From Callorhinchus milii (lineage: Eukaryota): DNA of 64,000 bases. Positions 8,224-64,000 of this stretch are shown here, one piece after another. The DNA is taken from contig NW_024704754.1 in assembly GCF_018977255.1 (NCBI RefSeq), positions 17,174,001 through 17,238,000 of the forward strand, written 5' to 3'. Made by a program: the position numbers and the translations under genes. Each line of letters starts with the position of its first letter. The first letter of the stretch is position 1. The notes below the pieces were generated by a model, which saw nothing but the letters and a program-made list of their open reading frames with translations, made no database searches and was not told the origin of the DNA.

Positions 8224-24268
<16,045 letters not shown>

Positions 24269-29572: not shown

Positions 29573-32500
29573 ATGTCCCTGTTCCCGTTCCTGGTGGTTC
29601 TGTGTCTCAGTCCGTGTGCAGTGCGGGGCAGCGCGAAACCAGCTCAGCAAAGGGTAAGTGCGTCTCAACCTCTGTGAAAAAAAATGCAACGAAACAGACC
29701 AATGTGTGTGTTCCTTTTAACTCTCGTCTGGTGGGTGGGTGGGTGGGTGAACGGGATGGGCTTCCTTCTAACCCCCTCCCACCACCACCCTTTAAAGCCA
29801 AGGTTTGCTGTTCTTTTACAATCCAAAGCGAATCCCCCAGCCCAGCCCCCCCCCCCAGTCCCGGCCCCATTCCCCCCCAAGCAAAAAAAATCTGCCAGAA
29901 GATAAAAGAGATTTCGAGTCGTTTTGCAGCAGAAGGGTTGAATCAGGGATTCGGTGGGTGTGCGGATTTACAACCACCATTGCTCACCAGGGGTTAAGTG
30001 AGCAACGCTGGTTTAACTCTCCCTGCAGTGTGCAATCCCGACCAAGCGCTGATTCCTTTTTAAAAGCACAAACCCCAAGAGATTCAGGTCATCTTAAACC
30101 AGGAACTAACCAGCAACTGCAGAATTAGTTTAAATGTATGTGTGTGTGTGTGTGTGTATACGTACCTCTGTGCGTGAGAAAACTTTTAACCAGCAAAGGG
30201 ATGCATTGCTAATCAGGTGTCCCACGTGCTTCCTGATAACTGGAATATGGAATAATAATATAAATGATATAATAATAATATTATAATGACGTAATAGAAA
30301 GCTGTTTAACTATGCCGACCGTGAAAAACAGAAGTGTTAAGGTCTCTGTGCAGTAATGTTTCAACGCCTTGGGATGTCCTCCCGACACGAAAGGCGCTAC
30401 ACAAGTGTAATTTGTTGTTGATTTTCTATCCATTGTAAATGTCTTGTGACGGTTACTGTGGTTGACGTTCGCTGAAGCTCCGTTGTTCAACCTTAACCCC
30501 GAGGAACCATATTGTTTCTCTCGGACGTCGATCTCCTGTCCACTGCCCCCCCACCGCACCGCACCGTCACACCCTCCAGCCTCGCTCACTCCTTCGATCC
30601 TCCCTTCCCCCCTCCCCCACCTCAGCCCCCACCTCGTGCCCAGCTCGGCCAAAACATCCGAGCTCCTCCGCTCGGCTGGCTCTGGCCTCCTGCTTGTCCC
30701 TCGCTCCCTCCGCTCCACCATCGGCGGCCGCACTTTTAGCCGCCACACCCCGAAGCTTTGGAATTCTCTCCCCAATCCCTCACCTTGCCCCCTCCTACCT
30801 CTCCTTTAGATCACGACTGAAGACCGTCCTCTTCAACCGTGCTGACGGTCACCTCCCACCTCCCTCCCCCACCCCCGGGACGGCGTAAGGCTCCGCCACT
30901 GTTGAGCGCTCCGAGACCCTGACCCGTCCGAAGGCCGCTGTGTAAATGCAAACTGCGGTTGTTGTAAAAGTTGTATTTTTCAGGTTGTCCGGGTTGGAGC
31001 CTTTTCCTGGAATAACTGCGGCGGTGGGAAGGATCCTGGTACAATTGCGTATCTTTCCATTCGTCCCGATCCGGTTAATATTCCAGGGGTTCTTCGAGTC
31101 AGTGCCATGGCATCGACCTCCGTTATCCTCTCGACCCCCCTGAAGGTATTTCAGAAACTTCAAATCACAACGTTCTCTATCGCAGCCCTCTCACTCGGTC
31201 ACTCACTTCACAGTGGCCTGTGGGACACTGCTGCGTGCGAAAGGGCTGCTGGCTTCACCAACAAATGCACAGTCACCGAATAATAATGATAATCCTTGCA
31301 TTTGATACAGCGCCTTATCACGTCGTTGAGACGTCTTAAAGCGCGGCACAGAATGTACTGTAAAGCTGTACATTTTGCAGACGAAACGTCACTCTGTCAA
31401 TACGCTTTTACAGTAAATTGAGACGCTGTACCAAATGCAAAGCTTCTTTATCTAATTATTTATTTAATCTGTCACCGCTTTGCTATGACCAGCGCTTCAG
31501 CATTTATCCTCCACTTACTCCACTGCATTCTCATCCCAGTTCCTCATAAGCAGCATTCAGAACCAATAATAATCCTTGCAATTGGTATCGTAATCTTTCC
31601 CATTGGGAGAATGTCTCAAAGCGCTTCACAGGATTAACTGTGAAGTGCAGTGACTGTGGTATTTTCTAAACAAACACAGCAGCCAATTTTGCACACAACA
31701 ATGTCCCCCACAAAATAGCCTCGAAGTGGGTTAGAAAGTTCAACCGGGTCTAGATTTAACTGATAGATATATTTACCTGATTTACTCATCTATATCTCTA
31801 AAAGCGTCCAGAATTTGGCAAATTGTGAACTTCAGTCTTAACTTTGAAGTGGGCTTTACTGTGGTGCTTAAAATCGCTCTGGGACGCTACCTGCATGGGG
31901 GGCACTGTGTAAATGCAAGTTGTTGTTGTAAAAGAATTCCTACACACGTTCCCAGATGAGACACGCCGGAGTCTCGTGTGACATCGCTTCTTCTCCCTCG
32001 CCTCCTTCAAGACCGGTTTCAAGACCCTCCTCTTCGATCGTGCCTTCAGTCGCCCTCCCACCTTCCTGCCTTCCCTCACCCCCTACCCCACCCCTCCCCC
32101 CCCTTGCTCGGGTCCTGCCCCCTGACTGTCCAGCGCCTTGGGACGTCCTCCCGACGTGAAAGGCGCTCTATGCATGTCATTTTGTTCTTGTTGTTGGTGG
32201 TGTTGATATTCAACCCTTCTCTTTAACCCCCAATGCAGGTCAACGTAACGTTGCAGAAGGAAGTGGCTGGAACTTGGGTGAAGATTCCGTGCGTGGAGCA
32301 GATCGGAAGCTGCACTTACGAAGACGTCTGTCGTCTGCTCTACCTGGCGATCCCCCCCGGACAGAGCTGTCCTGAGCCGCTGGCGACCTATGGAATTCCA
32401 TGTCACTGCCCTTTCCAAACAGTAAGAACCATTTGCCCTTCACCGCCAGCGAGAGGAATGGGAGTGCATCTGATTTACGTAGCAATGCTCAGCCCATCTG

Positions 32501-32832
32501 CTCTGTCCTGTAATGCCAATAAATGATCCCACTCCAGTCTATTACTCATATCCCTTTATTGGGGTGAAATTCCATCCAGGTCTATTTATGTAGCATTTCA
32601 TATAATAATAATAATAATAATAATCATTTTGCCTGCAAACAGCTAGCGGAATAACATTTGTCTTCTTGGTTTTCAGGGCAGCTATACTCTACCCGAAACA
32701 AGCTTTGACATCCCCAACTTGGATGTCCCTTACTGGCTAACCAACGGCGACTACAAGGGCAAAGCAGTGATGAGCAGCGGCAACCGAGAGCTGGCATGTG
32801 TCGAGCTCTCCTTCTCTTTCAAAACCACATGA
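29573..32832 (+). CDS. GM2A: Ganglioside GM2 activator (ML domain), 4 exons, 193 aa
   Basis: Exons 29573-29653 (signal peptide [19 protein letters not shown]), 30984-31145 ([16 protein letters not shown]), 32239-32421 ([35 protein letters not shown]), 32677-32832 (GSYTLP..WLTNGDY..LACVEL). All phase 0, GT-AG; all 8 canonical Cys present. Confidence 0.95.
30600..30965 (+). mobile_element. L2 LINE 3' end fragment
   Basis: Translates [44 protein letters not shown], a typical L2 ORF2 C-terminus. Similar fragments near 14630, 23130(-), 31990, 35460, 38530, 49920(-), 50650(-), 54220(-). Confidence 0.85.
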
Positions 32833-34835
32833 CGTTCAGTCGTTGTATTAAACACCAAAATGTACAGCTTTTGAATTGAAAGTAAATGCGAAGCGTTCAT
32901 TCGTTTCACTTGTTCTTTTTTACTGACTTACTGGTAGTTGGGTGAGGGCTGGGATTCTTCCCCGATATTCCTGGAAACCGAAGCAGGGAGGGGGTCCTAG
33001 TCGGACAAGCAGCGGGAAGCTTGCCAATGCTTAGCTCCAACATACACTCTGTGCTCTTAACCCATGGTGATGGGTTTCTGCACATGTTAGACACTTGACT
33101 GACCAAACAGAAGGTATTATCACTCTCATTGAGGTTCACTCACTCTCAAGGTAAAGATCATTTGACACTATCGAACCAATTCATTCGCCTGCAAAGTTTC
33201 TGAACTAACTGAGGTAACGGTATGCTACCCATTTAGATAAATAAATAGATTTTCGATGCAAAACATATGTGTTTATAGGCTCCAAAGCAATTTCGCTCAA
33301 GTGTTGGGCGAACGGAAGGAACAACTGCCGGACAGTTGATTCACACACAAGATGGCTTCACATCTCGAAAGCTTCACAGATCACAGCAAATTATAGTTTG
33401 TCTGCTTTAATTGGCCTCCAGCAACAATCACGTGCCTTAATTACTGTTTTCAATGATATGCGTGAGCGCAGTTATCAGTAACTTCATTCACTGGGGAAAA
33501 CCTTAGCTATATTTAGCAGGACTTTCTGTATCACTCAAAAACTTAATTTAATCTCTGTTGCTACTCATGCTGTGATTTCCCATCATGAGCAATGCTCATC
33601 CATCATGAAACCTAAGGCAAGTTTCCTTAGCAAGACGCTAAAAAACGCCTGTGTTGACTTAGCAAGACGTAGGAACCCAGTTGTTAGTCGACTGGCAGAT
33701 TGCTTTCTGGGGTTAATAAACCCTCCAAAATAAACAAATAAATAAAATTGCTCACTCACAAATATGGCCGTTTGTGAGACACTACTGTTAGAATTGGCTG
33801 CAGTGTTTCACCCACAAATTACACAGTCAATCCAGTTTAACAGTACAATCCGTGAGAAACTTTGAGCTGCCTCAATGATGTGATAAAGCGCTATATCAAA
33901 ATGCAAGGATTATTATTATTATCATCTCAGTAACAGAGCGTATAAGATGAATCCTTGCATTTTATGTAGTGCCTTATCAGAGGTTTCTGTGATGTGTAGT
34001 GACTGTGTATTTGTGGGCGAACGTCGCAGCCAATTTGAGCCTTGATACGTTTATAGGAAGCAACAGGAAAGAATGACAGAATCTCAAACTGTTGCTGAAT
34101 TCATTCATGTGACTCACACATAATATATATCTTCCTGAGGACTTTTGAGTTTCAGAGTTTAAAATTACAGACAAAATATCCCGGTATTACCCTTTAATAC
34201 ATACTCTTAGAGAAGGAAGTGGTGAGTTTGTACTTTATTTATCACAAGAATCACAGGTTTCAAATATAGAGACACCAAATTCCAACCGAGTAAATAATAA
34301 TAATAATAATCCTTGCATTTGGTACAAGCCAGGTCTGGATCAAGTTCAGCGTCATACAACCACTAATAACAATAATAATATAATAATAATTCTTGCATTT
34401 AATATAGCGCCTTATCGTGTGGTTGAGACGTCTCAAAGCGCTTCAGAGAATATACCGTAAAGTGGATGGACTGCATTTTGTGCGCGAAACACGGCAGCCA
34501 ATTGCGCACAGAGGCGTCCCCGCAAACAGTCAGGCATCGAGCGACCAGATTCTTATTTAANTTTTTTGGAAGGGATTATTACACCCGAAAGAGCAATCTG
34601 CCGATCGATTAGCAACCGGGTTCCTGCTTACTGCTCGGTAAACGGAGGTGTGTGGAGTAAGGAAACTCACCTGACAGAGATCTGTCAGCGCCTAACATGG
34701 AAAACAGAGCATTTCATGTTAAGGCTATAATCCAAGTGAAGTGGTTACACCCTATTACAGAAGGGTATTAAAAAAAAACTCTTACAAACCAAAGTTTTGT
34801 ATTCTTTTCGCCCGGAGATCGGAGTCGGACTGAAG

Positions 34836-37351
34836 ATGTCTTTTCCCACCCGTGTCCTTATCCTGATCTTGTGCCTTCTCCACCGATCCAGACCAGTAAG
34901 TAATCCATACACACTTGACCAGTGCGTCTGAAATTAACTGCGTCCGTGTTAAACTCTCCAAAGGAAGTGTGTTGCAACCGTTTCCTGTAAATTGAAACGG
35001 GTAACAACAGGTTGTGGGCATGCACATTTAATGGACCTATCTTATTCCATTGACGTTCATTTCCTTTATCAAGATTTTACTCTTTTTATCCTCTGTCGTG
35101 TTGGCTTAATGCTGCACGTGATTTCACAGTGAGGGTTTAAATTTCTTGCATAGTGTCTTATCAAAGCTCTTAACGTATAACTATTGTCAAGGGTGGTGAC
35201 TTAGGCAAACATTTTGCACAGCAAACAGCAATGAAGTGAATTATTGATTTACTGGAGGGATTGTTGACCAGGGCGCCAGGAGAGAGCAACTCCCTTCTCT
35301 TTCAAATAGACTCACTGGATCGTTAACATCCGCCTGAACAGGCAGATGGAACTCAGGGGTGTCTGCCTTGACCCTAGAAAATAAGGAAAAATTGTACTGT
35401 GTGCCAGAGGATTTGCCTCTCACCCTACGTATGGGGTTAGAGGGTGGATAGACCAGGTCTGCTCTGGCCTCCTGCTTGTCCCCCATCCCCTGCGTTCCAC
35501 CATTGACGGCCGCCCTTTCAGCCACCACGCCCCGAAGCTTTGGAACTCTCTCCCTCGATCCCTCCATCTTGCCCTCTCCTGCCCGTCTTTTAAGTCACGA
35601 CTGAAGACCTTCCTCTTCGACCGTGCTGACCGTCACCTCCTCCCTCTCCACCGGCTCGGTGTCAGGCTCCGCCACTAAGGGTGGGTTCCCAATCTCAGCC
35701 TGACACAGACAGGGGATGGGGCTTTAACTGGGTCCTCCATTAGCAGAGCAGATGAGGGTTTCAGTCACTTGCTCATCTCAATTGCTAAGGAAATGGCAGA
35801 GCATTTTACCCTTTGTGTGCATTGGGGGATAGATTAACACAATCTCATGACGGACAGTCACCTCTTTAGTTGTGAATCGAGTCAACATGCTGTACTACGC
35901 TTATATCTTTTACCCCTTTTATATTAGTCAGAAGGCTTCTCCTGGAAAAACTGCAAGACTAATAATCAGCCTATCACAATCCAAAGCCTCTCCATCAAAC
36001 CCGATCCCGTTAGAATGCCGGGTGGTATCTCAGTGAAAGGATCTGCCTTTTTAAGCCAAGCCATCTCATCACTAAAGGTGGGTAACTCTAACCATATCTA
36101 ACCGTAGAGACAGATTTATTTCCCTTGTTCTCCGAACACGAGAAAGAATCCACTCTGTGCCTCCTCCATGCAGGATGGACAATCCAGGGAGAACTTGACA
36201 TTTAAGAGCGTAACTTGTGCCATTTCACAACACATTCCTTGTGATAATAATATTAATAATAATAATAATAATGGATAATCGTTGTATTTAATACAGAGCC
36301 TTATCCTGCCGTTGAGACGTCTGAAAGCACTTCACAGAATATACTATGAAGGGGATTGCAATATATTCTGGGAAGTGCTTATTTTGCCACCTCATGAAAC
36401 ACTGCAGATTTCATCCTCTATTTTCAACCTGATTTGTGTGCCTGAGCAACGCTCCTTTTTCTTAAAAATCTGTTTCAGGCTGAAATAACATTGTACAGGA
36501 AGGTCCTTTTCTTCTGGTTGAAAATCCCCTGCGTGACTTTTGACTGCGTGTATGAAGTTTGCAAGTTACTGAAACGTGATCCGTCCTGTTCTTTCAAACA
36601 AGTGAGTCTCAAACCTGGCAGAGGGTAAATGGTGAAAAAAATTATTCCAGCCTTTTGGCAAATTGCACACATTCTCCAGCTGTTACTGAATTCAGGAGTA
36701 AGTTTTTTTTGGGGGGGTCTTGTCATCTACATTAGTTTGTCTCCATCTAACACCTACAACTGACCCGGAGGGTCAAGAGCAGAGTCTGTCATGATCAGTG
36801 CTGTACCGCTCAATTTTTACAGAGAGAAAAACAGGTGCCAAATATTGCTGCCATCTCTACTACTGCGGTTGATGTGACTCCACTATGTTCTCCTTCCTGT
36901 GAATCTGGGCTATGGCGAGCGGAAATTGCTGTAGAAAGAGATAGCTCCATTGGAAACGACTCTCATCAGAAACGACTCTTATGCTCTGTGTAGATGTGCA
37001 AGAGCCAACTGCGTAGTGCGTACTCTACAAGTTTCTTTTGAAAAGGAAACCTGGCCTTACCCTGGTTTGTTGGCAGCGTAGACGCAACTGTGATTGGTAT
37101 CTATCTCGTGTTTGATCTGTTGACATTTGCGGTCGCCTGCATTGGTTCACTGCCTCGGTTCGAAGGAGAAACGTGGCACTTATGCTGGTCTTCTATGTAT
37201 GTTTCAGGGATTTCACAAGTTCCCGGGAAAAGCGTTCGTCATTCCACGACTACCCATCCCAAATGGCCAATACAGCATAGCCATTGACCTGAAGAGTCAC
37301 AGAAGGAATGTTGGGTGTGTGCAGATGGACCTGACTGTTAAAAAGAATTAA
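34836..37351 (+). CDS. Divergent GM2 activator-like paralog (GM2A-like B), 4 exons, 158 aa, intact ORF
   Basis: Exons 34836-34895 (MSFPTRVLILILCLLHRSRP), 35928-36077 (SEGFSWKNCKTNNQPITIQSLSIKPDPVRMPGGISVKGSAFLSQAISSLK), 36479-36601 (AEITLYRKVLFFWLKIPCVTFDCVYEVCKLLKRDPSCSFKQ), 37208-37351 (GFHKFPGKAFVIPRLPIPNGQYSIAIDLKSHRRNVGCVQMDLTVKKN*). All phase 0, GT-AG, same exon layout as GM2A; AATAAA at 37654-37659. Confidence 0.85.
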
Positions 37352-38344: not shown

Positions 38345-39092
38345 GTCCGTTTTCACCTGATACGCAAGTGAGGGGTGAGAAGATTCAAACTCCGTCCCAG
38401 AAAGGGGTTGGAAGCTCCAGCTGCGAAACATCGTTGTGTAAAGTCGGGACCGTTCTCAACCAAATACCGTCCTTAAAGGGGAATGGTGATAACTGTCACA
38501 CCAAAGCTGTTCTCTCCCTCAATGACTCCGCCTTGGCCCCCTCCTTACCCCATCTTGAGATCGCACCTGAAGACCTTCCTCTTCGACCGTGCTTACGGTC
38601 ACAGCCCACACCCCCACCCCCGGCTCCGCCACGGTCAAGCAGTCCGAGACTCTACCCCGCGTGAGGGCCACTGTGTATAAACGCAAGTTGTTTTGGTTCT
38701 GTGCAGGCGTACACACGCGCAAGCAACAACAACAACAACTTGTATTTATTTAGCCACCCTCGCCAGGGTAGCGTCCCTGAGCGCACACACACGCACACAC
38801 ACACGCACACAGACACACACAACAGTCTATTTGCCTCTATTTGAAAGGCAAATACGTATTGAAATCACCGTTCGCCTGCCATCTCCCCACCCCCCGGCCT
38901 GGATTAAAGAAAGGTATTTCACTTTCTCAGGGCACGTACAGATTCCCACCAAGAACCGAACGCCATTCCCCAACTCCCAAGGGATTAATAGGGGTTGTGA
39001 TAAATGGCGAGTACAGAGTGGAAATCATCCCGAAGAGCTCCATTGAGAAGGTCGGCCGCGTTAAGGTGCACCTGCATCTTAAAGCCCATTAA
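38345..39092 (+). pseudogene. Third GM2A-like copy (C): decayed exon 3 plus open exon 4
   Basis: ~38345-38500 reads VRFHLIRK/(frameshift)VRGEKIQTPSQKGVGSSSCETSLCK..NCH (exon-3-like, Cys replaced by Ser, no clear splice sites, followed by an L2 fragment). 38931-39092 reads GTYRFPP..VINGEYRVEII..KVGRVKVHLHLKAH* after a good acceptor, with AATAAA near 39110. Confidence 0.6.
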
Positions 39093-39579
39093 TGGGTGTA
39101 AGAGACATTAATAAAGTTCCACCAAATCTTACTGATGGCACCTACTTAGCAAATAAGACAACAATGTTCAAAAGGCCGTGACACTGTCCAAAAGTCCATC
39201 CCTGTGTCAACAACCCTCCCCCAGCCCCCAACTCGCCTCCCCGGCAGGATTTTAGGCTGTTTACCGTTCACAAAGCTCTATTTGAAGAACGTTTCTATTT
39301 CCCCGTGGGCTGTGTGTCAAAGGCAGTTTCTTTCAGCCAGACAGGAGTCTTCAAATAGCACGGCCCAAATATTGATAATAAATGCTGCTTTAACAGGCAC
39401 TGCTCGAAAAGAGAAGGAAGGAAGTTTTTCCCCAGTGTCCCAGCCAACAATCTCTCGCATAAACCTCACCCACAAAATACACACAGTCACACTAATTTAC
39501 AGTATATCCAGTGAGGAGCGTTGAGATATCCTCCCCACTGTGAAAGGTGCTATATCGAATAGAAAAGATTATCGTAATC

Positions 39580-50700: not shown

Positions 50701-53700
50701 GGGATTTGGAGGGTGGCCGAAGGCTCGGTCGAAGAGGAGGGTTTCAAGACGCGCCTTGAAGGAGGCAAGGGAGGGAGCGAGGCGAAGGGAATGTGGGATG
50801 GAGTTCCATAAGGTGGGGGCAGATAGGGCGAAGGCCCGGCCACCGATGATGGTGAGAGCATGAGTACTACCAAGCAAGCAAGACTAGCATTCTGCCTTAC
50901 TGGAGACACCTGGAGTATACATACTTCATGCGTGATCCCTTCGAACGCTAGTTAATGATTTTTTTGTTCGCTCCCTCACTCTCCTCCAGATGTATCGGTG
51001 GGTGCTTCCAATCAGCTGGAGAAGGCGAAAGCCACATTTTTGCAGGGACATGAGAAGGAGCTGCAGATAATCAGGGAGGAGCACGACAGAGAGCTCACAC
51101 AGCTCAAGGAGAATCTGTCTGCATCCCACGCCGCAGAAAAGCAACAGCTCCAGCTCAGGCACACAGAGGAGGTTAAAGGACTGAGACAAGAATTGCAGGA
51201 AAAGGTTTGTATTATAAATAAATAGGTGTTAGACACGCGAAAACATGGGTTATAGAGAGTCTAAAATGGGAGACGTGGGTTAGTTATCGAGACTATAACT
51301 GGGAGATATAATAATAATCCTTGCATTTGATATAGCGCCTCATCACGTTGTTGCGTTGAGACTTCTCAAAGCGCTTCACAGAATATACTGCAAAGTGAAT
51401 TGAAATACGGGTTATAAAATCTATTGATTGGGAGACAATGGGATAAAAGTTTTAAATAGTCCTGCATTACGTAACCCTCGGTTTACCACTTGCCCCATCT
51501 TCCTGCTGTATGTCAAATGGCACCACTAATTTCCGTGCCCTCAACAAACCCCCAAAAGTGAAGTGCATTAACCTCTTAGAGCTAAGATGATGGAGAAAGC
51601 TTCTGAATTCCAACAGAGATCTCAACATTAATGCTTCCTAAATCGGCCCTTTTAAGAGGGTTGTGGATCTGATCACTTGACTTGACTGTTTGTGCAATCT
51701 GATGGGCTGGTGTTGTCTTTGTAGGTTGGCAGCGCAAGTGTTTGTGCAAGAGGTAAATGATTGACAACGTGTGTTTTTTTTCCCTCTGTGTTGTTGTTAC
51801 CTCCAGAAAGAATCAAATGCCAAGATAGAAGAATTGGAAACCCGTCATTCTGAATACGTTCAGGCCCTCAGGGGAGACTGTGAGACGACGTTAATAGGTA
51901 ATAAAGACTCCACTGCAAACTTGGGTAGCGTCCTCAGAATGGGGTGCAAACCAACACAGCGAACGTTGGGGTGGGGGGGTTAGAGGGGCACACTGAAGGG
52001 GGTATTTCGACTGTCTTCTGCTCTGCTCACCCACCCCTTCATGATCTCCAGTCAAACACTGGACAATGATAATGCCCGAGGGAAATTGCAGTGTTTCATA
52101 ACGCATTTGATGTGATATTTATTCTGTGCTGAAAATGTAATGCTGCTGCTACTGCCATCGAATCTGTTGCAAAACATCACGTTTCACCCCATTCCTACAA
52201 ATCCCCCCCTGGCAAATCCCAACTCAACCCCTCGTAAGTGTCTTGCACTCAACGACCACGACTCTCGCAATCGCACATACGTCAACAGTCATGGGTGGGT
52301 GTGTGTGGTGTGGGGGGTGTGGGGAGGCGAAGTGGGGGGGGGAAGTATCACACAAGCGAAACTCTCTTCTCTTTTCCTATGAGGGCCTTTAACACTCACC
52401 TGAACAGCATTTGCAGAAGATCTTATTTCTCCCCTTGCCAACAGGGTAAATTTGGACCAGTCCAGGGATCGCTTGATCCAAATGCCAAAATACAGGAACT
52501 CGATTACTCAATTATAACCGCACTCTCCACAGCGAAAAAGTCCCCTGTTGCAGCGAGCCACTTCGGGTTGGTTGGAAAACCCCCCCCACCCCCCCCCCCC
52601 ACCCCACAGCAATAGTGCTGTAGCGTAGTGGTTACAGCAATCGCGAGCGAGAGGACCCGGGTTCAATTCCCGGGCAGGGTGAAACCTTAGGCAACCTTAC
52701 TCCACACGCCTGTGTTTATCCAGCAGTAAGTGGCAAACCCAGCGGTAGTAATCCTTTGAAAAAAAGAATAATAGTTGGATCAGTCACTCCACGACTGTTT
52801 GTAGGAGACTGCTGTGGGCAATTGGCTGCTGAGTTTCATCCAAAAACCGTACAGTTAATCCACTTTACAATATTCTGCCAATCACTTTGAGACGTCTCAA
52901 TGACGTGATAAGGCGCTGTATCAAATGCAAAGATTATCATTATCAACACTGCCAATTGCTGCTCCCATATCGGAAGTCCATATTAACAAGTTCTGAGTTG
53001 CCCACTTCTCTCTGATTCTGACTTCTTCAGGCGCTAAGCAATTTAAAGGAAAGGTGTGCATTACATTGAGAGCTTGAACCAACTCTGTTTTGCTAAGGAT
53101 TTGTTGCAGTTAAAACGCCTTCCCTCTGTACTGTGTATCTCAGTCTGACCAGACCTGTCACAGCATGTTATAGCTGTATGTTTGTATGTATATATATATG
53201 TATAAAAACTCTCCCCTTCTTCGAGTCCCACCTGAAAACCTACCTCTTCGACCGTGCTTAAGAGCCACCTCCCCCTCCACCCTTTGCTTTTTTTAAAGAA
53301 AATCGACGTGAAGTTTTAGACTCTTTTTCTTGTTGTTTTTCTTAGAGTTGATAAAATCGCATAAACAGGAGAAGAAATCACTGGCTGAATCCTTGGAGAA
53401 CAGGTGCTCATCCCTTCAGGTAAGTGTCTATAGCGTCAGATACGAGTAACTCACAGAAACCGGGAAGTATGCACAGGCCGGAGTTCTTTGAAATACAGGA
53501 AAAAATTGGGATGTAAAATGCGGTATTTCTTAACAACAACAACAAAATTGCCTTTGAATAGTGCCTTTCACATCAGGAGGACGTCCCAAGGCACTGGGCG
53601 CTAACAAGATCCCTTAATAAGAAGTCCCGCTAACCGAGGGTAACTTCCGTCTCCCAAACTTTGGTCATGTTAGCAGCTGGGCGATGTGTTATCTATCAGG

Positions 53701-55851
53701 TGCGGCATCAATTTACATGACTCTGATCCCTTGCTTAGAAATCCTGATAAGAAATAGCAAATGTTAGGTGCCCCCCAACTCCCCAACTCCGCAAATCTGC
53801 CCACCTGTGACAGTCCACGTGTTGCGCCAACCATTCACCCACCCCCAACCCCCACCACCCACCTCTGCGTTTGCTCACTTCTGATCTCGTGCAATATTCA
53901 TGCCTTTACCGAAGGAAACAATAGAGGAACTGACTGCCCAGATCAACTCGTTTCAAGAGAAGACGAAGAAAATCGAGGACGCAATCTTAAGAAGAGATCT
54001 CAGGCAAGATAACCAGGTATTTGCTGGTTCTGGGAGTTTCTCCCATGTCCTGTCCAACAATCAATACCCACCCCTACCCACCTCCCAAATAAAATCGCTC
54101 ATCCGTTTCAAGGCTATTGCTGTGCGCAATTGGGCTGCCTACAAACATAGAGTCACGCCACTTCACAATCAATTTGTCAAGCGCTTTGGGGTGTGAAAGG
54201 CACTGCACAACAGGAACAACAAGAGCTTGCATTTATACAGTGCCCTTCGCGTGGGTAGTGTCTCGGAGCGCTTAATGCCAAGCTGGGACGAAAGAGGAGG
54301 TGACCGGAGGCACGATCGACGAGGAAAGTCTTCAGGTGCGATTTGAAGATGGGCATCGAAGGGGTAAAGATGGAGGGATTGAGGCAGGGAGTTCCATAGA
54401 TTTGGCGGGTAGTGGCCGAAGGATTATTATGATGTGGGCTCAGCTGATTCACTTACTACTTTAGCATTAAAAAGTTGACCTGATAATAACAGACTCGTGG
54501 CAATGTCATGATAATTGTTGGAAGTCCCAGAACTAGTAGCAGCTGAGAAACGAGCACAGGGTGGGAAGACAAGCAATACCTAACTCACAGGCACTCTCTG
54601 CTGGCCAGTCACTGCCAATGATTTCTACTCACCAAATGTTCAGGTCAACTGTTTATATTAATAATAATAATAATCCTTGCATTTGATACACTCAAAGAGC
54701 TTCACAGGATTTAACTGCAATAGTGCAGTGACTCTGCCTGTGAGTTGGGCTTTACTGTTTGGCCGAATAACTCAACAAAATGCAAGGAACTGAGGTCCGA
54801 GCAGCTAACTCTTGTGAGCTCTGCTCTGCAGGACATGCGACCTCCCAGCCTGTTCTGGGAGCAGGAACTCGAGAGCTTACGGTTTGTGGTGGAGATGAAG
54901 AACGAACGGATCCACAAGCTGGACAAAAAGCTGTTGCGGATGGAAAACCTGGTAGGTTTCGCTTGGCGGAATGAAACCTTTGACTGGGGTCGAGGCCCGC
55001 TGACTCCGTAAACCGTGCTTGCTTCCCGTGGCTGATAAACGAGAGGTTATTCACACCAGTTTCCCTTCCATCTCAGGCCGAGCTGAACGCCTCGCTTGAG
55101 GAGAAGATAAAGTCCCTGCAGCAGGAGTGCGAGGACATGCAAGTCCGGCTGAAAAATCAAGTGGTTTACGCAAGGTACCTGAGGAACTCTTAACAATATA
55201 ATAACCATAATAAATAATAATAATAATCCTTGCATTTGATATAGCACCTTATCACGTCATTAGACGTCTCATCCTTCACCGAATAATAATAATAATAATA
55301 ATAATCCTTGCATTTGATATAGCGCTTTTTTTTTGGAGGGATTATTACCCCCACCACCCCCCCACCAAAAGCCATCCATCAATCGACTAACAACGGGGTT
55401 CCTGCTTACTTCTGGGTAAACCGAGGCGCGCGTGTGTGGAATAAAGAAACTTGTCCAACATTTCACCCCGTCTGGGTGAATCGAACAGGTTCCTCTCGCT
55501 CATCGAGGCGAGCGCTCTAACCACTGCCCTACAGGATTCCATTGTCGGATTTACCATAGTTAGTGTCAAGTAGATGGAGTCAACAAAATCACCTAATCTC
55601 CCATTAACCACTGTTAGAAAGATGGTGTGTGTGTGCGCGTAAAATCTTACCGTATCTCGTCTGCCGTTAGGCAACTCTCTGTTGAGCACGTGGCTCTACA
55701 GCAGACATTGGAGAAGGAGTCTGTGGCCAAGCAGCGGGTTTGCCAGAAGAACGAGGAGCTGCTCTGGAAGCTGGAGAACGGAGAGGTGTCTCCCACGGCG
55801 GGCAGCATGTGGAAACCGCAGCCAGAGTCGCTGGAAATCTCCGCCAGGTGA
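47723..55851 (+). CDS. CCDC69: Coiled-coil domain-containing protein 69, 9 exons, ~329 aa
   Basis: Exons 47723-47767 (MGCSGSRVCRCYKKQ), 49624(or 49618)-49687, 50990-51204, 51807-51897, 53346-53419, 53915-54016, 54832-54951 (PSLFWEQELESLRFVVEMKNERIH), 55077-55174 (LEEKIKSLQQECEDM), 55671-55851. GT-AG and phase-consistent. The MGC start and FWEQELESL motif match CCDC69, and it neighbours GM2A. Confidence 0.9.
52615..52945 (+). mobile_element. tRNA-derived SINE, near full length
   Basis: GTAGCGTAGTGGTTA head, GGTTCAATTCC B box, standard tail. Confidence 0.8.
55285..55540 (-). mobile_element. tRNA-derived SINE with internal deletion
   Basis: Reverse complement head and tail of the 3308 family. 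Confidence 0.75.
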
Positions 55852-58474: not shown

Positions 58475-61348
58475 TTATGTTTGCCCCGGACTGGGGTGAG
58501 GAAGAACCTTGACGGTAGTGGACGCTGTGCTCTGTCCCTGCATATTCTGAGCCGTGCAGGAATACAGTCCCTCATCCACAGGTCGGCTCTCATCCACTAA
58601 AAGCACGCTCTGTGACAATTGCTGGATCTTTCTTCCGATGTACACTTGGCGTTGGGTCTCCCGGGTGTAGGTTGGTCTCCCCAACTGTTCACAGGAAACA
58701 GACACAAAAGACACAGACACAGAGAGTGAGAGAGAGAGAGACAGAATATATCAATTTCTCATCGGTGTTCAAGTGTAGAATTTTACCTCCCGGACGTTAA
58801 ACCTTTTGTCTCAAAGTTCGAAGATTCAGAATGGAAACGTGCCAAATTCTTAAGATTGGTCTTCATCTAATCGGACGTGGCTTTCTTTCGAACGACTGGG
58901 ATTGAATTTCAGGTGTTCCACATTAAATCACACGTGACCTTGAATTTTAAGACTAAAACGATAAAAGTCTAAAGACTTTGACCATTTACAATGCTCTAAC
59001 GATACTCTGAGCTCCTCCTTAACTCTTGCAATGACAATGATCATCTGATTACACCAGTTCAGGAGGGAGGGGATGAGGCAGAAGGAAATGGGATGGAGTT
59101 CGTGGTATTTGCCGAGCGGAGGGAGGGAGTGGATAGGTCAGTAGGGGTGCAGGAGGTCACAAGTAGGGGGAGTGGAAATAATGACCAGAAAGTGATGGGT
59201 TTCAACTCAACTCAATTATCGGACGAATACGATAATCAATAACATTTGTACCGAAAGCAAAGTGACCCTAACACGGAGCCGCTATTTAAACCCTTGAGAC
59301 TTAACAGCTTACCTTCTGCCCAGGAAACACCCAGGTAAAGTCCACCGGTATCTCGGGCTCTCCCAGAGCTGCACACGTCAAATTAAAGTTCTCACCCACA
59401 CGCGCTGAACTGACGGAGGCTTTGATAACAGCCGAGGGCCGAGCAGAGGGATCTGAACAAGTTTACGGAAAAAATGGTTAAACGTAATATCTTTAAATTC
59501 TCTCCAGAAAGAATAAAGAACCATCTCGCGGTGCTTCACAAGCAATTACCGTCAAGCGTAGTGACTGATTTTACAGAGACCATAAAGAAAAACCTGAAAT
59601 TGCCCTTTGCATCTCTTAAACCCATGTCCTCTTTGGTCTATTGACTTGTTGCATCCTTAAGTGCAATACTGATCTGGGTTTTTTTCCATCCCGTTTCGAA
59701 GTGTTGAAAGTGAACGTTATTTTAATAAAATAAAAACTGAGCGTCTAATATGTAAAAAAAAACATTGTCGCTTAATCCACGACTGTTTGTGACAGACGTC
59801 ACTGTGCGGAATTGGCTGCCGGTTTTCGCCCACAAAACATACAGTCAATTCTCTTTACAGTGAAGTGCTTCAACAAGGTGATAAAGCGCTATATCAAATG
59901 CAAGGAATATTATTATTATTATTAAACTTTACACCACGTTGAAAACGAACGTCATTTCAATCGAAATAAAAGCTGATAATCTTAACACTTACACCTGACA
60001 AATATCAGGAGGTACTTTGTTGAGCTCTGCCTCAATCCCTGGTAACTGGCCACGCAGTAAACCGTGCCAGCGAAGGACGGCACAGCCTTGTGGACAACAA
60101 AACCCTTCGTCACATCAAACGTGATCAGTGTCCCGTCCAGCGGGATCTCCTCCGGTGGGAATTCCCGGTGCAGGGTCACTTTGGCCATTGGGTTGGTCAC
60201 TCGGCAGGGAAGCCTGGTGGGCCTGTCTGTCCGCAGCTGGACTGCTTCGTAATAATCGTTCGATGGTATAAACAGCTCACGTGGATCTACGGGGAAAGGC
60301 ACCAGAGGCTTTGGTCACTTACGGCTACGAAACCTCACCGCGTCCAATCCTTTCCTGTCGTTTTTATCCTCCTCTTTTCTTCTCCCATCTCGTGATGGGT
60401 CGTTGTCTAAACCTCCCCCCCCCCAACTCCCATATACACACACACACACACCAGGGAAAACGCCTTTTTAAATTAAGAATTCCTCCACAAATCACCGTAA
60501 ACTTAAATGTTAAGACAAAATGGTTTCGCAGCAGAAGACCAGCACAGTAGCAACTTGGTGGGGTGTGGGGTGGGTGGGGTGGGGAGGGGGGGGGGGGGGG
60601 GGAGAAGGGAAACGGCAGTCAGGAGCGAGTGAACCCTGGCCAATGACAGACTGTGGGTCCCACCGGTGAAGAAGACATAGGTGCTGCCTGTCTTCGACTC
60701 GTCCTTCCTGCAGTTCTGCCCATCGCAGTGCAGAGCCCAGCAGCCGTACTCCCCGGTGTCAGCTCCGGTGGTGTTTGTTAGGATCAGTTGGCTGAACTTC
60801 TCTCGGTGGCTAATTCTGCAAGTGAAAAAGAGTACAATTATCGATTGCCTAGTACAAACACCCGCCACATTAATTAAAAAAAAAGACACCACCAATCTGT
60901 CCAACCCTCCCCACCCGTGAGATCAGTCGTGACTATTTTGGCGGCGTGTTTTTGGCCAGTGTGATAATTATCACCAGGTGATATCGTCACATGCCGCAAT
61001 TTGGATCACGGTCGATGTAGGCTCCCAGTGTAGGGTCAGGGATTAAGCCTGACTCATCAGCAGGACTATGGAAGAGCAGACCAGTCACTAGGGGCTGGGA
61101 ATCCTCCCCTTAAACTCTTGTTAACCCTGCAAACCAAAACCCTAACGGGTAGGGTGGTCCTTGCTGGACAAGCAGCGGGAAAGCTGGCCGGACAGGGCAC
61201 TCGATGGGCAAGCTATGTGATTCCAGTTGGTTAGAGTCCAGCAGTTACCCCAAAGCACACTCTTGGGTCCCCAAGCCTTGGCTCTCGCCAACCTGCGCCT
61301 AATAATTTCCGGAATTAGTTAAGCAGGAGGCGTCCCTCCAGGGAGAGA

Positions 61349-61381
<33 letters not shown>

Positions 61382-61880
61382 CATTTCATTCCAACAATCT
61401 ATCTCTGGGATTTCCACGTGTAGGTGTGGGATGAATGGAATTCTCAGTTGGATTTGGAGACTCTTAAGCAACGGTGATGGGTTTCCGCACGTGTCAGCTA
61501 AATAAATAATAACCGGCAGAACAGACTTGCCGGTCTGAACGTCACTAATCCAGGTCCTATATGTTCCTACCTGAACCTGCTGTCATCGTCCTCGTCCAGA
61601 TAGCTGGGGTAACGCCAGTTGATGGGCTTGCCTCTGCATCGCAGCTCAAACCTCCCTCCAGCGGGGACGGATAAGGTTTCCGGCGGTTTCTGAAACACTC
61701 CCTTCTTGATCGCCAGGCTCATGATAAACACCGGTGGAGACTCCTTGGCCATGGTTTTCTTCTCCTTCCTCGCTTTGATCTTCTTGACGCTGGGTTTGAG
61801 CTTCTTGCCGGGGGTTTGCTTCTCCCGGGCAACTTTGCCCACCGTTTCGGTGACTTTCTCCTCCTTTTTCTGGCATTCCC
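58475..61880 (-). CDS. PDGF receptor-like secreted Ig-domain protein (PDGFRL-like paralog), 5' partial
   Basis: Exons (minus strand): 61571-61880 (FQKPPETLS..ELRCRG..YPSYLD), 60664-60815 (ADTGEYGCW..CRKDESKTGSTYVFFT), 59993-60286 (PCRVT..KVTLHREFP), 59313-59452 (CAALGEPEIPVDFTWVFPGQK), 58475-58684 (SQSVL..YSCTAQNMQGQS). Phase-consistent. The signal-peptide exon was not found and is probably beyond the window. Confidence 0.9.
61090..61500 (+). repeat. Unclassified dispersed repeat, longest copy
   Basis: Collinear with 56800-57200 including the internal (GA)n. Confidence 0.7.
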
Positions 61881-64000
61881 CTGAAACGACCAACACAGTT
61901 TACTGAAACAAACGATTTTCCACGCACGTTGCAACGACAAAGACAACTTGCACACATATATATATATATATAGCGCCCCTCAAGCAGGGTAGCGTCCCAG
62001 AGCGCTTGAAGCTGGCCCAGAATTGTATGGTGAACTTCCGCTGCATTTCACGAACTAAAATAAAGAGGTGAAAAATAGGTCGTTGGATGTGCTAATCACC
62101 ACATCACATACCTCATGTTTAATCCCTGCAGCTTGTTTCCCTATCCCTGATCTTCTTAAGAGCTGCAGAAAAACAGCGCACAAATTAAGAGTGCTTTCAA
62201 GACTTTTCTCACAATTCTACGCGCACTTATACTGTAAGCCGAAACCTTATTAGTTTTATCGCTGTATGGGTGGGTGTGCGATCTTGGCAAGTGGCAAAAA
62301 ACACTGAGACAACAAACAAAAAAAAAAACGCCGAGTTAACCAAAAACTGCCGGGTCGATAAAACATAACACCAGTCTATTTAAACAGCAAGGCGGAATTA
62401 AGTTCCATTTCTGTGCTTGAGGATTGAGGAGAGGTGAATATTCTTGGTGAAATAATAATAACAATAATCCTTGCATTTGCATTTGATATAACGCCTTATC
62501 GCGTCATTGAGACGTCGCAATGCGCTTCACGGAATATATTGTAAAGTGGATTGACTGTGCATTTTGTCGGTGAAACACGGCAACCAGTTGCACATACAGA
62601 AGCTGCCCAGTTTGAACTGCTTTATCCCACTGATGGAAAGCTTGCCACCGTTATCGCTAACGTTACAGCCAGATGGTCCTTGCACTGAGCTACACAGGAA
62701 GTGGGTCATGGCTGATGTGCTCCACCGCCATTGAATCCACCCGACCCAGTTCAGTGCCGCAGTGAAACAGCGTCCAAACAAGACTCGGTAGGCACTAGGA
62801 CACGAGAATCGCATTCCTTCACGTCGCTTGCTTTTCATCATTATATAATCGCTTAAAATTTGACGGTTAAAACTTGACCGGTGACCGTTTTGTTAACGTG
62901 GATGGTTTGAGCTGGAAATATTGAATAGAGATGAGTTAAATGCATGGATTCCCGTGCACTCTCACCTCGGTTGACTTAACTTAACCCTAACTCGCTGGCG
63001 ATTTTACTTACCCAATTCCAGTAGAAAAAGGCAGGCTAAGCAAGCCAGAGGGAGAAAAAATCTCAGCTTCATCACGCGTAGAGAAAGTTTCTAAAAAGTT
63101 TTCGAGGGAGCTGAGCAGAAGTGAGCCCAAGCTCGGACTGAAGTTCACACTAAGGTGATGGTCTCAGAAACTTCACAGCGGAGTAGCGAAGGGGGTGGGT
63201 TCCAGGATTTACTTTTCTTTCAGCTATTTCTTGGTGAACAAAGTCTCCTCACAGCCGGCTGAGATTCAACGGGAAGAATTTAGCCAGCTGAGAAGGCAAA
63301 CTCAATGAGCCCATTCATCTGCTTAACCTGACATCCACTCTCCAATTAACATCCACATACTTGGCATACTTTTCAGCTCCTTGCTATATATATTATACAA
63401 CGGGGTGATGCGTATTGCAACCACATATGTTTAGCAATGATTGAAAAATATTTCGGAAGAGAGAAATAGCTTAATTTGACACAAATTCAACAATAAATAT
63501 GTAATCCATCCCCCCCTTTCCCTCTTCCCACCATCGCTGCAATAATATTTGCGGCGTTCATAACACATTCCTTGTGTTAGTTAACGCTGCAAACTTCACC
63601 CTCAATTTTTCTCTTTTCTCTTCTGTTTTGCTCCCATTCCCTGCTCCTCTCCCGACTCCTTCCCTTTAGGAAAAGGTCCCAGTCCAATCTCTGGGAGTTG
63701 TGGCTTTGTGAGCTTGACGTTAATTGTAGGGGGAAAAATCGTTGAGGTTCGCTGAAAAGGAAGTAATTGAGGGGATCTGGCGAGAGTTAAAGGCAATAAA
63801 TAGATGTCAATGTGGATCTATGGAAAATAGGTCATGCTGAACAAATTCATTGGAACTCTTTGAGGAAGTAACAGTGGTTGTTGTGTATGTTATATGCCTT
63901 GATTTTCACTGCGGTCACTCATAAAATACTTCCTATAGCAGCCATGCGATTAGGGAGTAAATTGTACACCCGGAAAATGAATGAGCTGGAAATAGATAAT

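What the first reader, a model, noticed from the sequence alone, without database searches (positions are those of the whole stretch)
35928..37351. GM2A-like B is strongly cationic and has no N-glycosylation site: candidate secreted binder of anionic lipid or LPS
Seen (hand count, exons 2-4): copy B has 21 K/R vs 8 D/E and no N-X-S/T sequon; copy A has 12 K/R vs 13 D/E and an NVT sequon. Known: soluble lysosomal proteins are mainly sorted through mannose-6-phosphate on N-glycans, and the ML-domain protein MD-2 uses basic residues to bind LPS. Inference: B may have left the lysosomal pathway to act as an extracellular lipid carrier or innate-immune/antimicrobial protein.
Basis: inference. Interest (0 to 1): 0.7.

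Follow-up and report, generated by a model that had tools for sequence, protein, structure and literature searches.

The report
Shortened GM2-activator subfamily of cartilaginous fishes
This is an intact, spliced second copy of the GM2-activator gene from a shortened lipid-carrier subfamily shared by sharks, rays and chimaeras; it likely no longer assists the lysosomal enzyme hexosaminidase A, and its strong positive charge was not seen in any relative and does not by itself show an antibacterial role.

Summary
The counts are right: B (exons 2-4) has 21 K/R, 8 D/E and no sequon; A has 12, 13 and one. B is an intact four-exon gene with spliced contigs in public runs. It is not a recent copy of A (AU test p=6e-5). 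It groups (99/99) with 13 shark, ray and skate proteins of about 160 aa. All 14 lack the second half of the GM2-activator helix, the following loop and two of eight cysteines, and all carry an aromatic loop flanked by basic residues. No sequon is expected by chance 46% of the time, and mammalian GM2AP also reaches lysosomes without mannose-6-phosphate. A stand-in model matches GM2AP (Z 16.4) better than MD-2 (Z 9.2). Best reading: a likely secreted, hexosaminidase-independent lipid shuttle (0.5). LPS or antimicrobial role: possible, unsupported (0.15), but of interest because MD-2 was not found in cartilaginous fishes. Three limited paper searches found no description of the subfamily; the scan's earlier notes held nothing like it.

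The parts
34836..34895 (+). Gene B exon 1: start codon and predicted signal peptide (hydrophobic stretch ends at residue 15; likely cleavage just before Phe24)
   Evidence: contig ends at 34895 and a joint 34895->35928 with 30 letters on the short side in run X1
35928..36077 (+). Gene B exon 2: first strands of the ML (beta-cup) domain, first Cys
   Evidence: Pfam PF02221 E 0.002, under the cut-off as a single exon; GM2AP structures E 5e-7 to 1e-6; covered by spliced contigs in X1 and X3
36479..36601 (+). Gene B exon 3: 41 codons against 61 in A; aromatic loop flanked by K/R, four Cys; lacks the half-helix and loop of canonical GM2A and two Cys
   Evidence: joint to exon 2 with 125 letters on the short side in X1
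37208..37351 (+). Gene B exon 4: last strands, last Cys, stop; a 4-residue loop deletion seen only in B
   Evidence: joint 36601->37208 (30 letters on the short side) in X1
29573..32832 (+). Gene A: canonical 8-Cys GM2 activator (four exons), upstream in tandem
   Evidence: exon 3 is 100% identical to P0001, named GM2 activator of Callorhinchus milii by its sources; all three introns spliced in 4 of 4 runs
38931..39092 (+). Orphan copy of exon 4 (likely pseudo-exon): good acceptor, last Cys lost, middle part out of frame relative to B, no exons 1-3 nearby
34786..37287 (-). Two exons (about 34786-34984 and 37060-37287) of a spliced antisense RNA that overlap B exon 1 and part of B exon 4
   Evidence: CT..AC joint in X1, X2, X5; splice dinucleotides

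Best explanation
Gene B is an intact, spliced member of an old cartilaginous-fish subfamily of shortened GM2-activator paralogues, and it likely works as a secreted lipid shuttle that no longer presents ganglioside to hexosaminidase A. Shown: gene structure, splicing, subfamily membership, loss of the half-helix/loop and two cysteines, no N-terminal spacer. Predicted from a stand-in: the beta-cup fold is kept. Inferred: a signal peptide takes it into the secretory pathway; the aromatic tip with its flanking lysines/arginines docks on a membrane; a lipid slides into the cup and is carried to another membrane or particle; the missing loop removes the enzyme-docking surface. B's extra positive charge is a lineage-specific addition that would let it bind anionic membranes at neutral pH, where acidic GM2A would not.
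For: Clade of B with elasmobranch short proteins 99/99 (11 rows) and 99 (14 rows); B+A as sisters rejected, p-AU 6.4e-5. Same deletion in 11 of 11 short proteins aligned; the 3 added have the same core length and 6 Cys. C125, P126, C136, G104, S105 are invariant in 22 other homologues and missing in the short group. Model of A: helix 111-118 then loop to 139; model of the short relative P0074: 4-residue helix, short link. P0074 model pLDDT 89, best matches all GM2AP (Foldseek E 1.4e-14; Z 16.4, rmsd 3.1, 142 aligned). 21-23 residues before the first conserved strand in 11 of 14 short proteins against 33-41 in 9 of 9 canonical ones. Canonical Lys-Glu before the tip is Lys-Lys or Arg-Lys in 14 of 14. 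Precedent: a nematode GM2AP lacking the hexosaminidase-binding domain is secreted and does not activate the enzyme (PMC6675134, passages and Discussion, citing a paper I did not see). A intact next door keeps the old job.
Against: No ligand, location or tissue was measured. That the lost segment is the hexosaminidase-docking region is recalled (Wendeler 2006, not held). B itself was not folded; P0074 (44% identical) stood in, and its alignment held many canonical GM2A rows. Secretion against lysosomal delivery is open: GM2AP uses glycan-independent sorting and 8 of 13 relatives have sequons. The aromatic, basic tip also occurs in invertebrate 8-Cys homologues, so it is likely ancestral and not a mark of a new role. 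Two of B's three splice joints have only 30 letters on the short side, one under the tool's bar, and the runs are only guessed to be RNA. The short clade sits on a long branch.
Confidence: 0.5

Rival explanations
1. B is an innate-immune protein that binds LPS or bacterial membranes through its positive surface, an MD-2-like sensor, scavenger or antimicrobial.
For: pI 9.8 and net +14; same fold superfamily as MD-2 and MD-1 (Z 9.2 and 9.0); basic residues flank the aromatic tip in all 14; MD-2 was not found in cartilaginous fishes (bioRxiv 10.1101/817528 passages), leaving room for a substitute; fast divergence of the subfamily (36-45% identity to B). A 'ganglioside GM2 activator' of unknown paralogue is listed from stingray barb tissue (PMC6315956 table).
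Against: Charge is not conserved: -3 to +5 in 13 relatives. 14 of 21 K/R are basic in at most 3 of 10 relatives, spread over residues 27-157. The model is much closer to GM2AP and NPC2 than to MD-2; the family profile finds no MD-2 or MD-1 chain at E up to 10. The same preprint places the origin of tlr4 after the split from cartilaginous fishes, so no receptor partner is known. The stingray list is mostly housekeeping proteins.
Confidence: 0.15
2. B is still an endolysosomal lipid-transfer cofactor, sorted by sortilin or recapture, that serves other hydrolases or substrates (or still hexosaminidase A) and uses its charge to bind BMP-rich internal membranes.
For: GM2AP is sorted by sortilin and retained without M6P; lysosomal lipid-binding proteins dock on anionic BMP by positive charge, and GM2AP also assists beta-galactosidase (PMC7178057 passages); 7 of 7 proteins of one elasmobranch sub-clade keep sequons; the fold is GM2AP-like.
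Against: Loss of residues invariant in all 22 other homologues; loss of the N-terminal spacer; a pI near 10 is not needed at lysosomal pH, where A is already positive (+4.9 at pH 4.5); B and 5 of 6 proteins of the other sub-clade have no sequon.
Confidence: 0.25
3. In this lineage B is a duplicate under relaxed constraint; its charge and extra deletion are drift and have no function.
For: End branch 0.44-0.45 against 0.21-0.27 for A; a 4-residue deletion private to B; a neighbouring exon-4 copy has already decayed; intron-retaining and antisense contigs over the locus; B's exon 2 found no protein in the 5.8-billion set.
Against: Four open exons with canonical splice sites and all six core Cys kept since the split from sharks and rays (about 400 million years, recalled); spliced contigs in two studies; orthologues kept in 12 named elasmobranch species.
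Confidence: 0.1

Closest known systems
Vertebrate GM2 activator protein (GM2A; PDB 1G13, 1PU5, 2AGC)
   Same: Four-exon, phase-0 layout like A; 40% identical to A over 136 positions; six of eight Cys; predicted beta-cup; best sequence and structure match.
   Different: About 20 residues shorter in exon 3; half-helix, loop, C125 and C136 gone; no N-terminal spacer; tip aromatic and basic; B alone is strongly cationic, sequon-free and has a further 4-residue loop deletion.
Elasmobranch 'ganglioside GM2 activator(-like)' predicted proteins (e.g. XP_067899140, XP_048399008, XP_072924063, XP_055498642)
   Same: Same length (cores of 136-141 aa), deletion, Cys pattern, tip motif and N-terminus; one clade with B.
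   Different: Net charge -3 to +5; 8 of 13 have sequons; they form two sub-clades, both present in two catshark species; automatic names only.
Secreted nematode GM2AP (Trichinella, Onchocerca Ov28CRP)
   Same: GM2AP fold family, secreted, six Cys shared with the human protein, no help for hexosaminidase A (PMC6675134).
   Different: Separate origin and larger (259 aa, 10 Cys, glycosylated in Onchocerca); B's secretion and activity are untested.
MD-2 / MD-1 and NPC2 (ML superfamily)
   Same: Shared beta-cup fold (Z 9.0-11.9); small secreted-pathway lipid binders.
   Different: 13-16% identity; no MD-2 or MD-1 sequence match; B descends from GM2A; an NPC2-like gene lies elsewhere in the genome (L001; identity recalled).

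Membership tests
ML domain superfamily (PF02221) | Match to the ML profile | tested here: met
   Relatives P0074 and P0017 pass the cut-off (37.6 and 35.2 bits against 22.7), P0014 and P0076 do not; B exon 2 alone gives 18.8 bits.
ML domain superfamily (PF02221) | Beta-cup fold | tested here: met
   Model of stand-in P0074, pLDDT 89, matches GM2AP, NPC2, MD-1, MD-2; B itself not folded.
GM2 activator family by descent | Closest sequence and structure match is GM2AP; shared exon layout | tested here: met
Canonical GM2 activator (hexosaminidase A cofactor) | Eight cysteines, four disulfides | tested here: not met
   Six in B's core; positions 125 and 136 of A absent.
Canonical GM2 activator (hexosaminidase A cofactor) | Full helix and following loop (enzyme-binding region; assignment recalled) | tested here: not met
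   17-residue gap against human GM2AP in P0074 and a like gap in B; helix 8 residues in A, 4 in the short model.
Canonical GM2 activator (hexosaminidase A cofactor) | N-glycan site | tested here: not met
   None in B; one in 9 of 9 canonical orthologues.
Canonical GM2 activator (hexosaminidase A cofactor) | Stimulates GM2 hydrolysis; lysosomal location | not testable with these tools
   Needs a liposome assay and cell imaging.
Short chondrichthyan GM2A-like subfamily (defined here) | Loop deletion, six core Cys, aromatic tip after two basic residues, no spacer; one clade | tested here: met
MD-2 / MD-1 (LY96/LY86) | Sequence orthology to MD-2 or MD-1 | tested here: not met
   B descends from GM2A by tree and by every best hit; 13-16% identity in structure alignments; no MD chain among 6 PDB hits at E up to 10.
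MD-2 / MD-1 (LY96/LY86) | Basic cluster at the pocket mouth | tested here: inconclusive
   Three invariant basic residues flank the tip; surface electrostatics could not be computed.
MD-2 / MD-1 (LY96/LY86) | Binds lipid A and a TLR4/CD180 receptor | not testable with these tools
   No binding data; I did not search this genome for TLR4.

The most novel reading that the evidence does not exclude
Cartilaginous fishes, in which MD-2 has not been found, evolved their own secreted lipid-A or microbial-lipid binder from GM2A by cutting out the enzyme-docking loop; the fast-evolving short subfamily is that innate-immune lipid sensor or scavenger, and B is its cationic, antimicrobial form.
Probability: 0.13. 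Interest if true: 0.8.

Novelty: new variant of a known kind. Interest (0 to 1): 0.42.

Why it matters
GM2A is treated as a single-purpose lysosomal cofactor in vertebrates. A natural, long-kept variant without the enzyme-docking loop separates lipid carrying from enzyme presentation and points to an unstudied lipid-handling function in sharks, rays and chimaeras. Databases name these proteins 'GM2 activator(-like)', and B's exon 2 found no record at all. If the subfamily binds lipid A, it would bear on how the oldest jawed vertebrates handle endotoxin without MD-2.

Tried and rejected
Exon 2 of B against the 5.8-billion protein set: 0 hits among 6 candidates, weak evidence that B is unannotated. 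No RNA holder listed on record; contig depth cannot rank A against B and tissues are not given, so no expression claim is made. B as a recent duplicate of A: rejected. Further copies in the genome: none with A exon 3, P0017 or the orphan exon; weak hits L003 and L007 read as noise; searches are exon by exon and give lower bounds. A third complete gene at 37.4-39.1 kb: no exon 1-3 match by profile or DNA against shuffles. The orphan exon as alternative last exon of B: no joint among those shown (239 not shown), last Cys lost, frame-shifted middle; not excluded. The aromatic tip as a subfamily invention: rejected, it is in Limulus and other invertebrate homologues. Atlas search gave only ML-family clusters; the second did not complete. 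Primary papers on the enzyme-binding region, loop dynamics and sortilin sorting were not held; searches gave no residue-level source; PMC7226365, PMC7503724, PMC12083987, PMC8198874 (passages) added nothing on it. The catshark expression supplement (PMC11979771) could not be read and may show tissue patterns. No complex was predicted. Earlier scan notes: nothing near, nothing by sequence, one unrelated note by words. Limulus was dropped from the second tree as a truncated long branch.

Full report
Observation. Gene B has four exons on the plus strand (34836-34895, 35928-36077, 36479-36601, 37208-37351), GT..AG introns in phase 0, and an open frame of 158 aa. Exons 2-4 hold 21 K/R and 8 D/E, pI 9.8, no sequon. 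Gene A (29573-32832) gives 193 aa with 12 K/R, 13 D/E and one sequon. A's exon 3 is identical to a protein its sources name GM2 activator of Callorhinchus milii, so the window is from a chimaera. The charge is unusual: core net +14, against -11 to +5 in the 22 other proteins. The missing sequon is not: 46% of 20,000 shuffles of B lack one, although 9 of 9 canonical orthologues keep one.

Splicing. Five of 12 listed runs were laid; all are contigs and only guessed to be RNA. A is spliced at all three introns in 4 of 4 runs. For B, one contig of X1 joins all four exons at the predicted GT..AG sites; the exon 2-3 joint has 125 letters on its short side, the other two have 30, one under the tool's bar. 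X3, from another study, shows the exon 2-3 joint with 23 letters. X2 and X5 show no B joint. A minus-strand spliced RNA overlaps B's exons 1 and 4 in X1, X2 and X5, so unstranded counts over B would mislead. Level and tissue cannot be read from these data.

What B is. A search of 1.84 billion representatives with exon 2 gave 58 hits, among them proteins of about 160 aa from a stingray and a zebra shark. A profile of three of them found 8 proteins among 1,776 candidates, all from sharks, rays and skates; cluster look-ups and one further hit brought the set to 13 proteins from 12 species. B is 36-45% identical to the ten aligned and 40% to A. B and these proteins form one side of a branch with 99/99 support (26 rows) and 99 (28 rows, quick tree, Limulus, Rotaria and one oyster domain left out). 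B is sister to two elasmobranch sub-clades, both present in two catshark species. Forcing B and A together is rejected (p-AU 6.4e-5). The short clade sits on a long branch, but the shared deletion supports it independently of the tree. So the duplication predates the chimaera-shark split (about 400 million years, recalled). No such short form turned up outside cartilaginous fishes among the proteins fetched; the searches are not exhaustive.

Conserved changes. (1) Exon 3 is 41 codons against 61. Against human GM2AP the shark protein P0074 has a 17-residue gap after the third Cys of that exon. Five of 11 residues invariant in 22 other homologues (G104, S105, C125, P126, C136 in A's numbering) are gone, leaving six core Cys. 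A's model has a helix at 111-118 and a loop to 139; P0074's has a 4-residue helix and a short link. From recall this helix region is where GM2AP meets hexosaminidase A; the primary paper was not held. (2) The first conserved strand begins 21-23 residues after the start in 11 of 14 short proteins (the other three have doubtful N-termini) against 33-41 in 9 of 9 canonical ones: a signal peptide with no spacer. This rests on hydropathy, not SignalP. (3) The tip loop is aromatic and preceded by two basic residues in 14 of 14, where canonical proteins have Lys-Glu; invertebrate homologues show a like tip, so it is likely ancestral. The P0074 model (pLDDT 89, pTM 0.78; alignment of 29 rows, many canonical) matches GM2AP best: Foldseek E 1.4e-14, Z 16.4, rmsd 3.1, 142 aligned, ahead of yeast NPC2 (11.9), MD-2 (9.2) and MD-1 (9.0).

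Net charge in the 13 relatives is -3 to +5, pI 4.9-8.9; 8 of 13 have sequons (7 of 7 in one sub-clade, 1 of 6 in the other). Of B's 21 K/R, 4 are basic in 10 of 10 relatives, 3 in 5-7, and 14 in at most 3, spread over residues 27-157. Three-dimensional clustering was not tested. B also has a private 4-residue deletion in the exon 4 loop.

Literature seen. PMC5297682 (passages): sortilin carries GM2AP, and GM2AP is retained when M6P sorting fails. PMC7178057 (passages): GM2AP binds anionic BMP membranes by charge. PMC6675134 (passages and Discussion): nematode GM2APs are secreted and do not activate hexosaminidase A, one for lack of the binding domain. bioRxiv 10.1101/817528 (passages): no MD-2 found in cartilaginous fishes, with a caveat on sparse data. 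PMC6315956 (one table): a GM2 activator of unknown paralogue in stingray barb extract. Searches for a description of the subfamily: 25 of 4,211 listed, none holds 'GM2 activator'; 25 of 123, none holds 'GM2A'; 25 of 464, one mention. These were loose searches of an open-access library and do not prove absence from print; a catshark expression supplement was unreadable.

How it likely works. Signal peptide, then a three-disulfide beta-cup. The aromatic, basic tip would dock on a membrane, take a lipid into the cup and move it, without the loop that presents ganglioside to the enzyme; A keeps that job. I put 0.5 on a secreted shuttle of this kind, 0.25 on a lysosomal cofactor with changed partners, 0.15 on an LPS-binding or antimicrobial role and 0.1 on relaxed drift in this lineage. 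Gene structure, splicing, descent and the deletions are shown; fold is predicted on a stand-in; location, ligand and loss of enzyme activation are inferred.

Verdict. B works like a GM2AP-type lipid carrier and descends from GM2A, but fails three tested features of the canonical activator and is not an MD-2. It is a new variant of a known kind. Interest 0.42; 0.8 if the subfamily proves to be the endotoxin binder of cartilaginous fishes (probability about 0.13).

Noticed in passing
window minus strand, about 48263 -> 37287-37060 -> 34984-34786 -> 28689 or 24855: Spliced antisense RNA across both GM2A genes; the 34984/37060 joint is in three runs of two studies, loose ends match unique places with minus-strand splice sites. 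May be a far 5' leader of the minus-strand transporter gene or a long non-coding RNA starting near 48.3 kb.
   Followed up: partly
window 38931-39092 (+): Orphan exon-4 copy, closer to B (DNA score 98) than to A (70; shuffles about 44), with polyA signal at 39110, last Cys lost and a locally shifted frame: likely remnant of a third copy.
   Followed up: yes
window 22432-24268 (-): Exons of an amino-acid transporter gene (Aa_trans, weak, E 0.04); SLC36A-like by recall, the usual neighbour of GM2A.
   Followed up: partly
window 50992-55850 (+) and 58475-61899 (-): Coiled-coil exons (CCDC69/MTUS-like by recall; no telling Pfam hit) facing a gene with a VEGFR-like Ig exon at 59985-60314 (E 2e-14), PDGFRL-like by recall.
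   Followed up: no
window 34845, 34860, 34868: Variant letters in B exon 1 among runs: P4S, I9V (4 of 4 runs) and one silent change.
   Followed up: no
P0027 (bird) and P0067 (axolotl): Divergent 8-Cys 'GM2 activator-like' proteins in tetrapods, unresolved in the trees; P0027 has an aromatic tip like the short subfamily. There may be an older second vertebrate GM2A lineage.
   Followed up: no
L001 (G000:C9:264917-265102): The only ML-domain hit over the cut-off in the genome search; reads as an NPC2-like exon (recall). No MD-1 or MD-2 exon was picked up, but the search also missed A and B.
   Followed up: no
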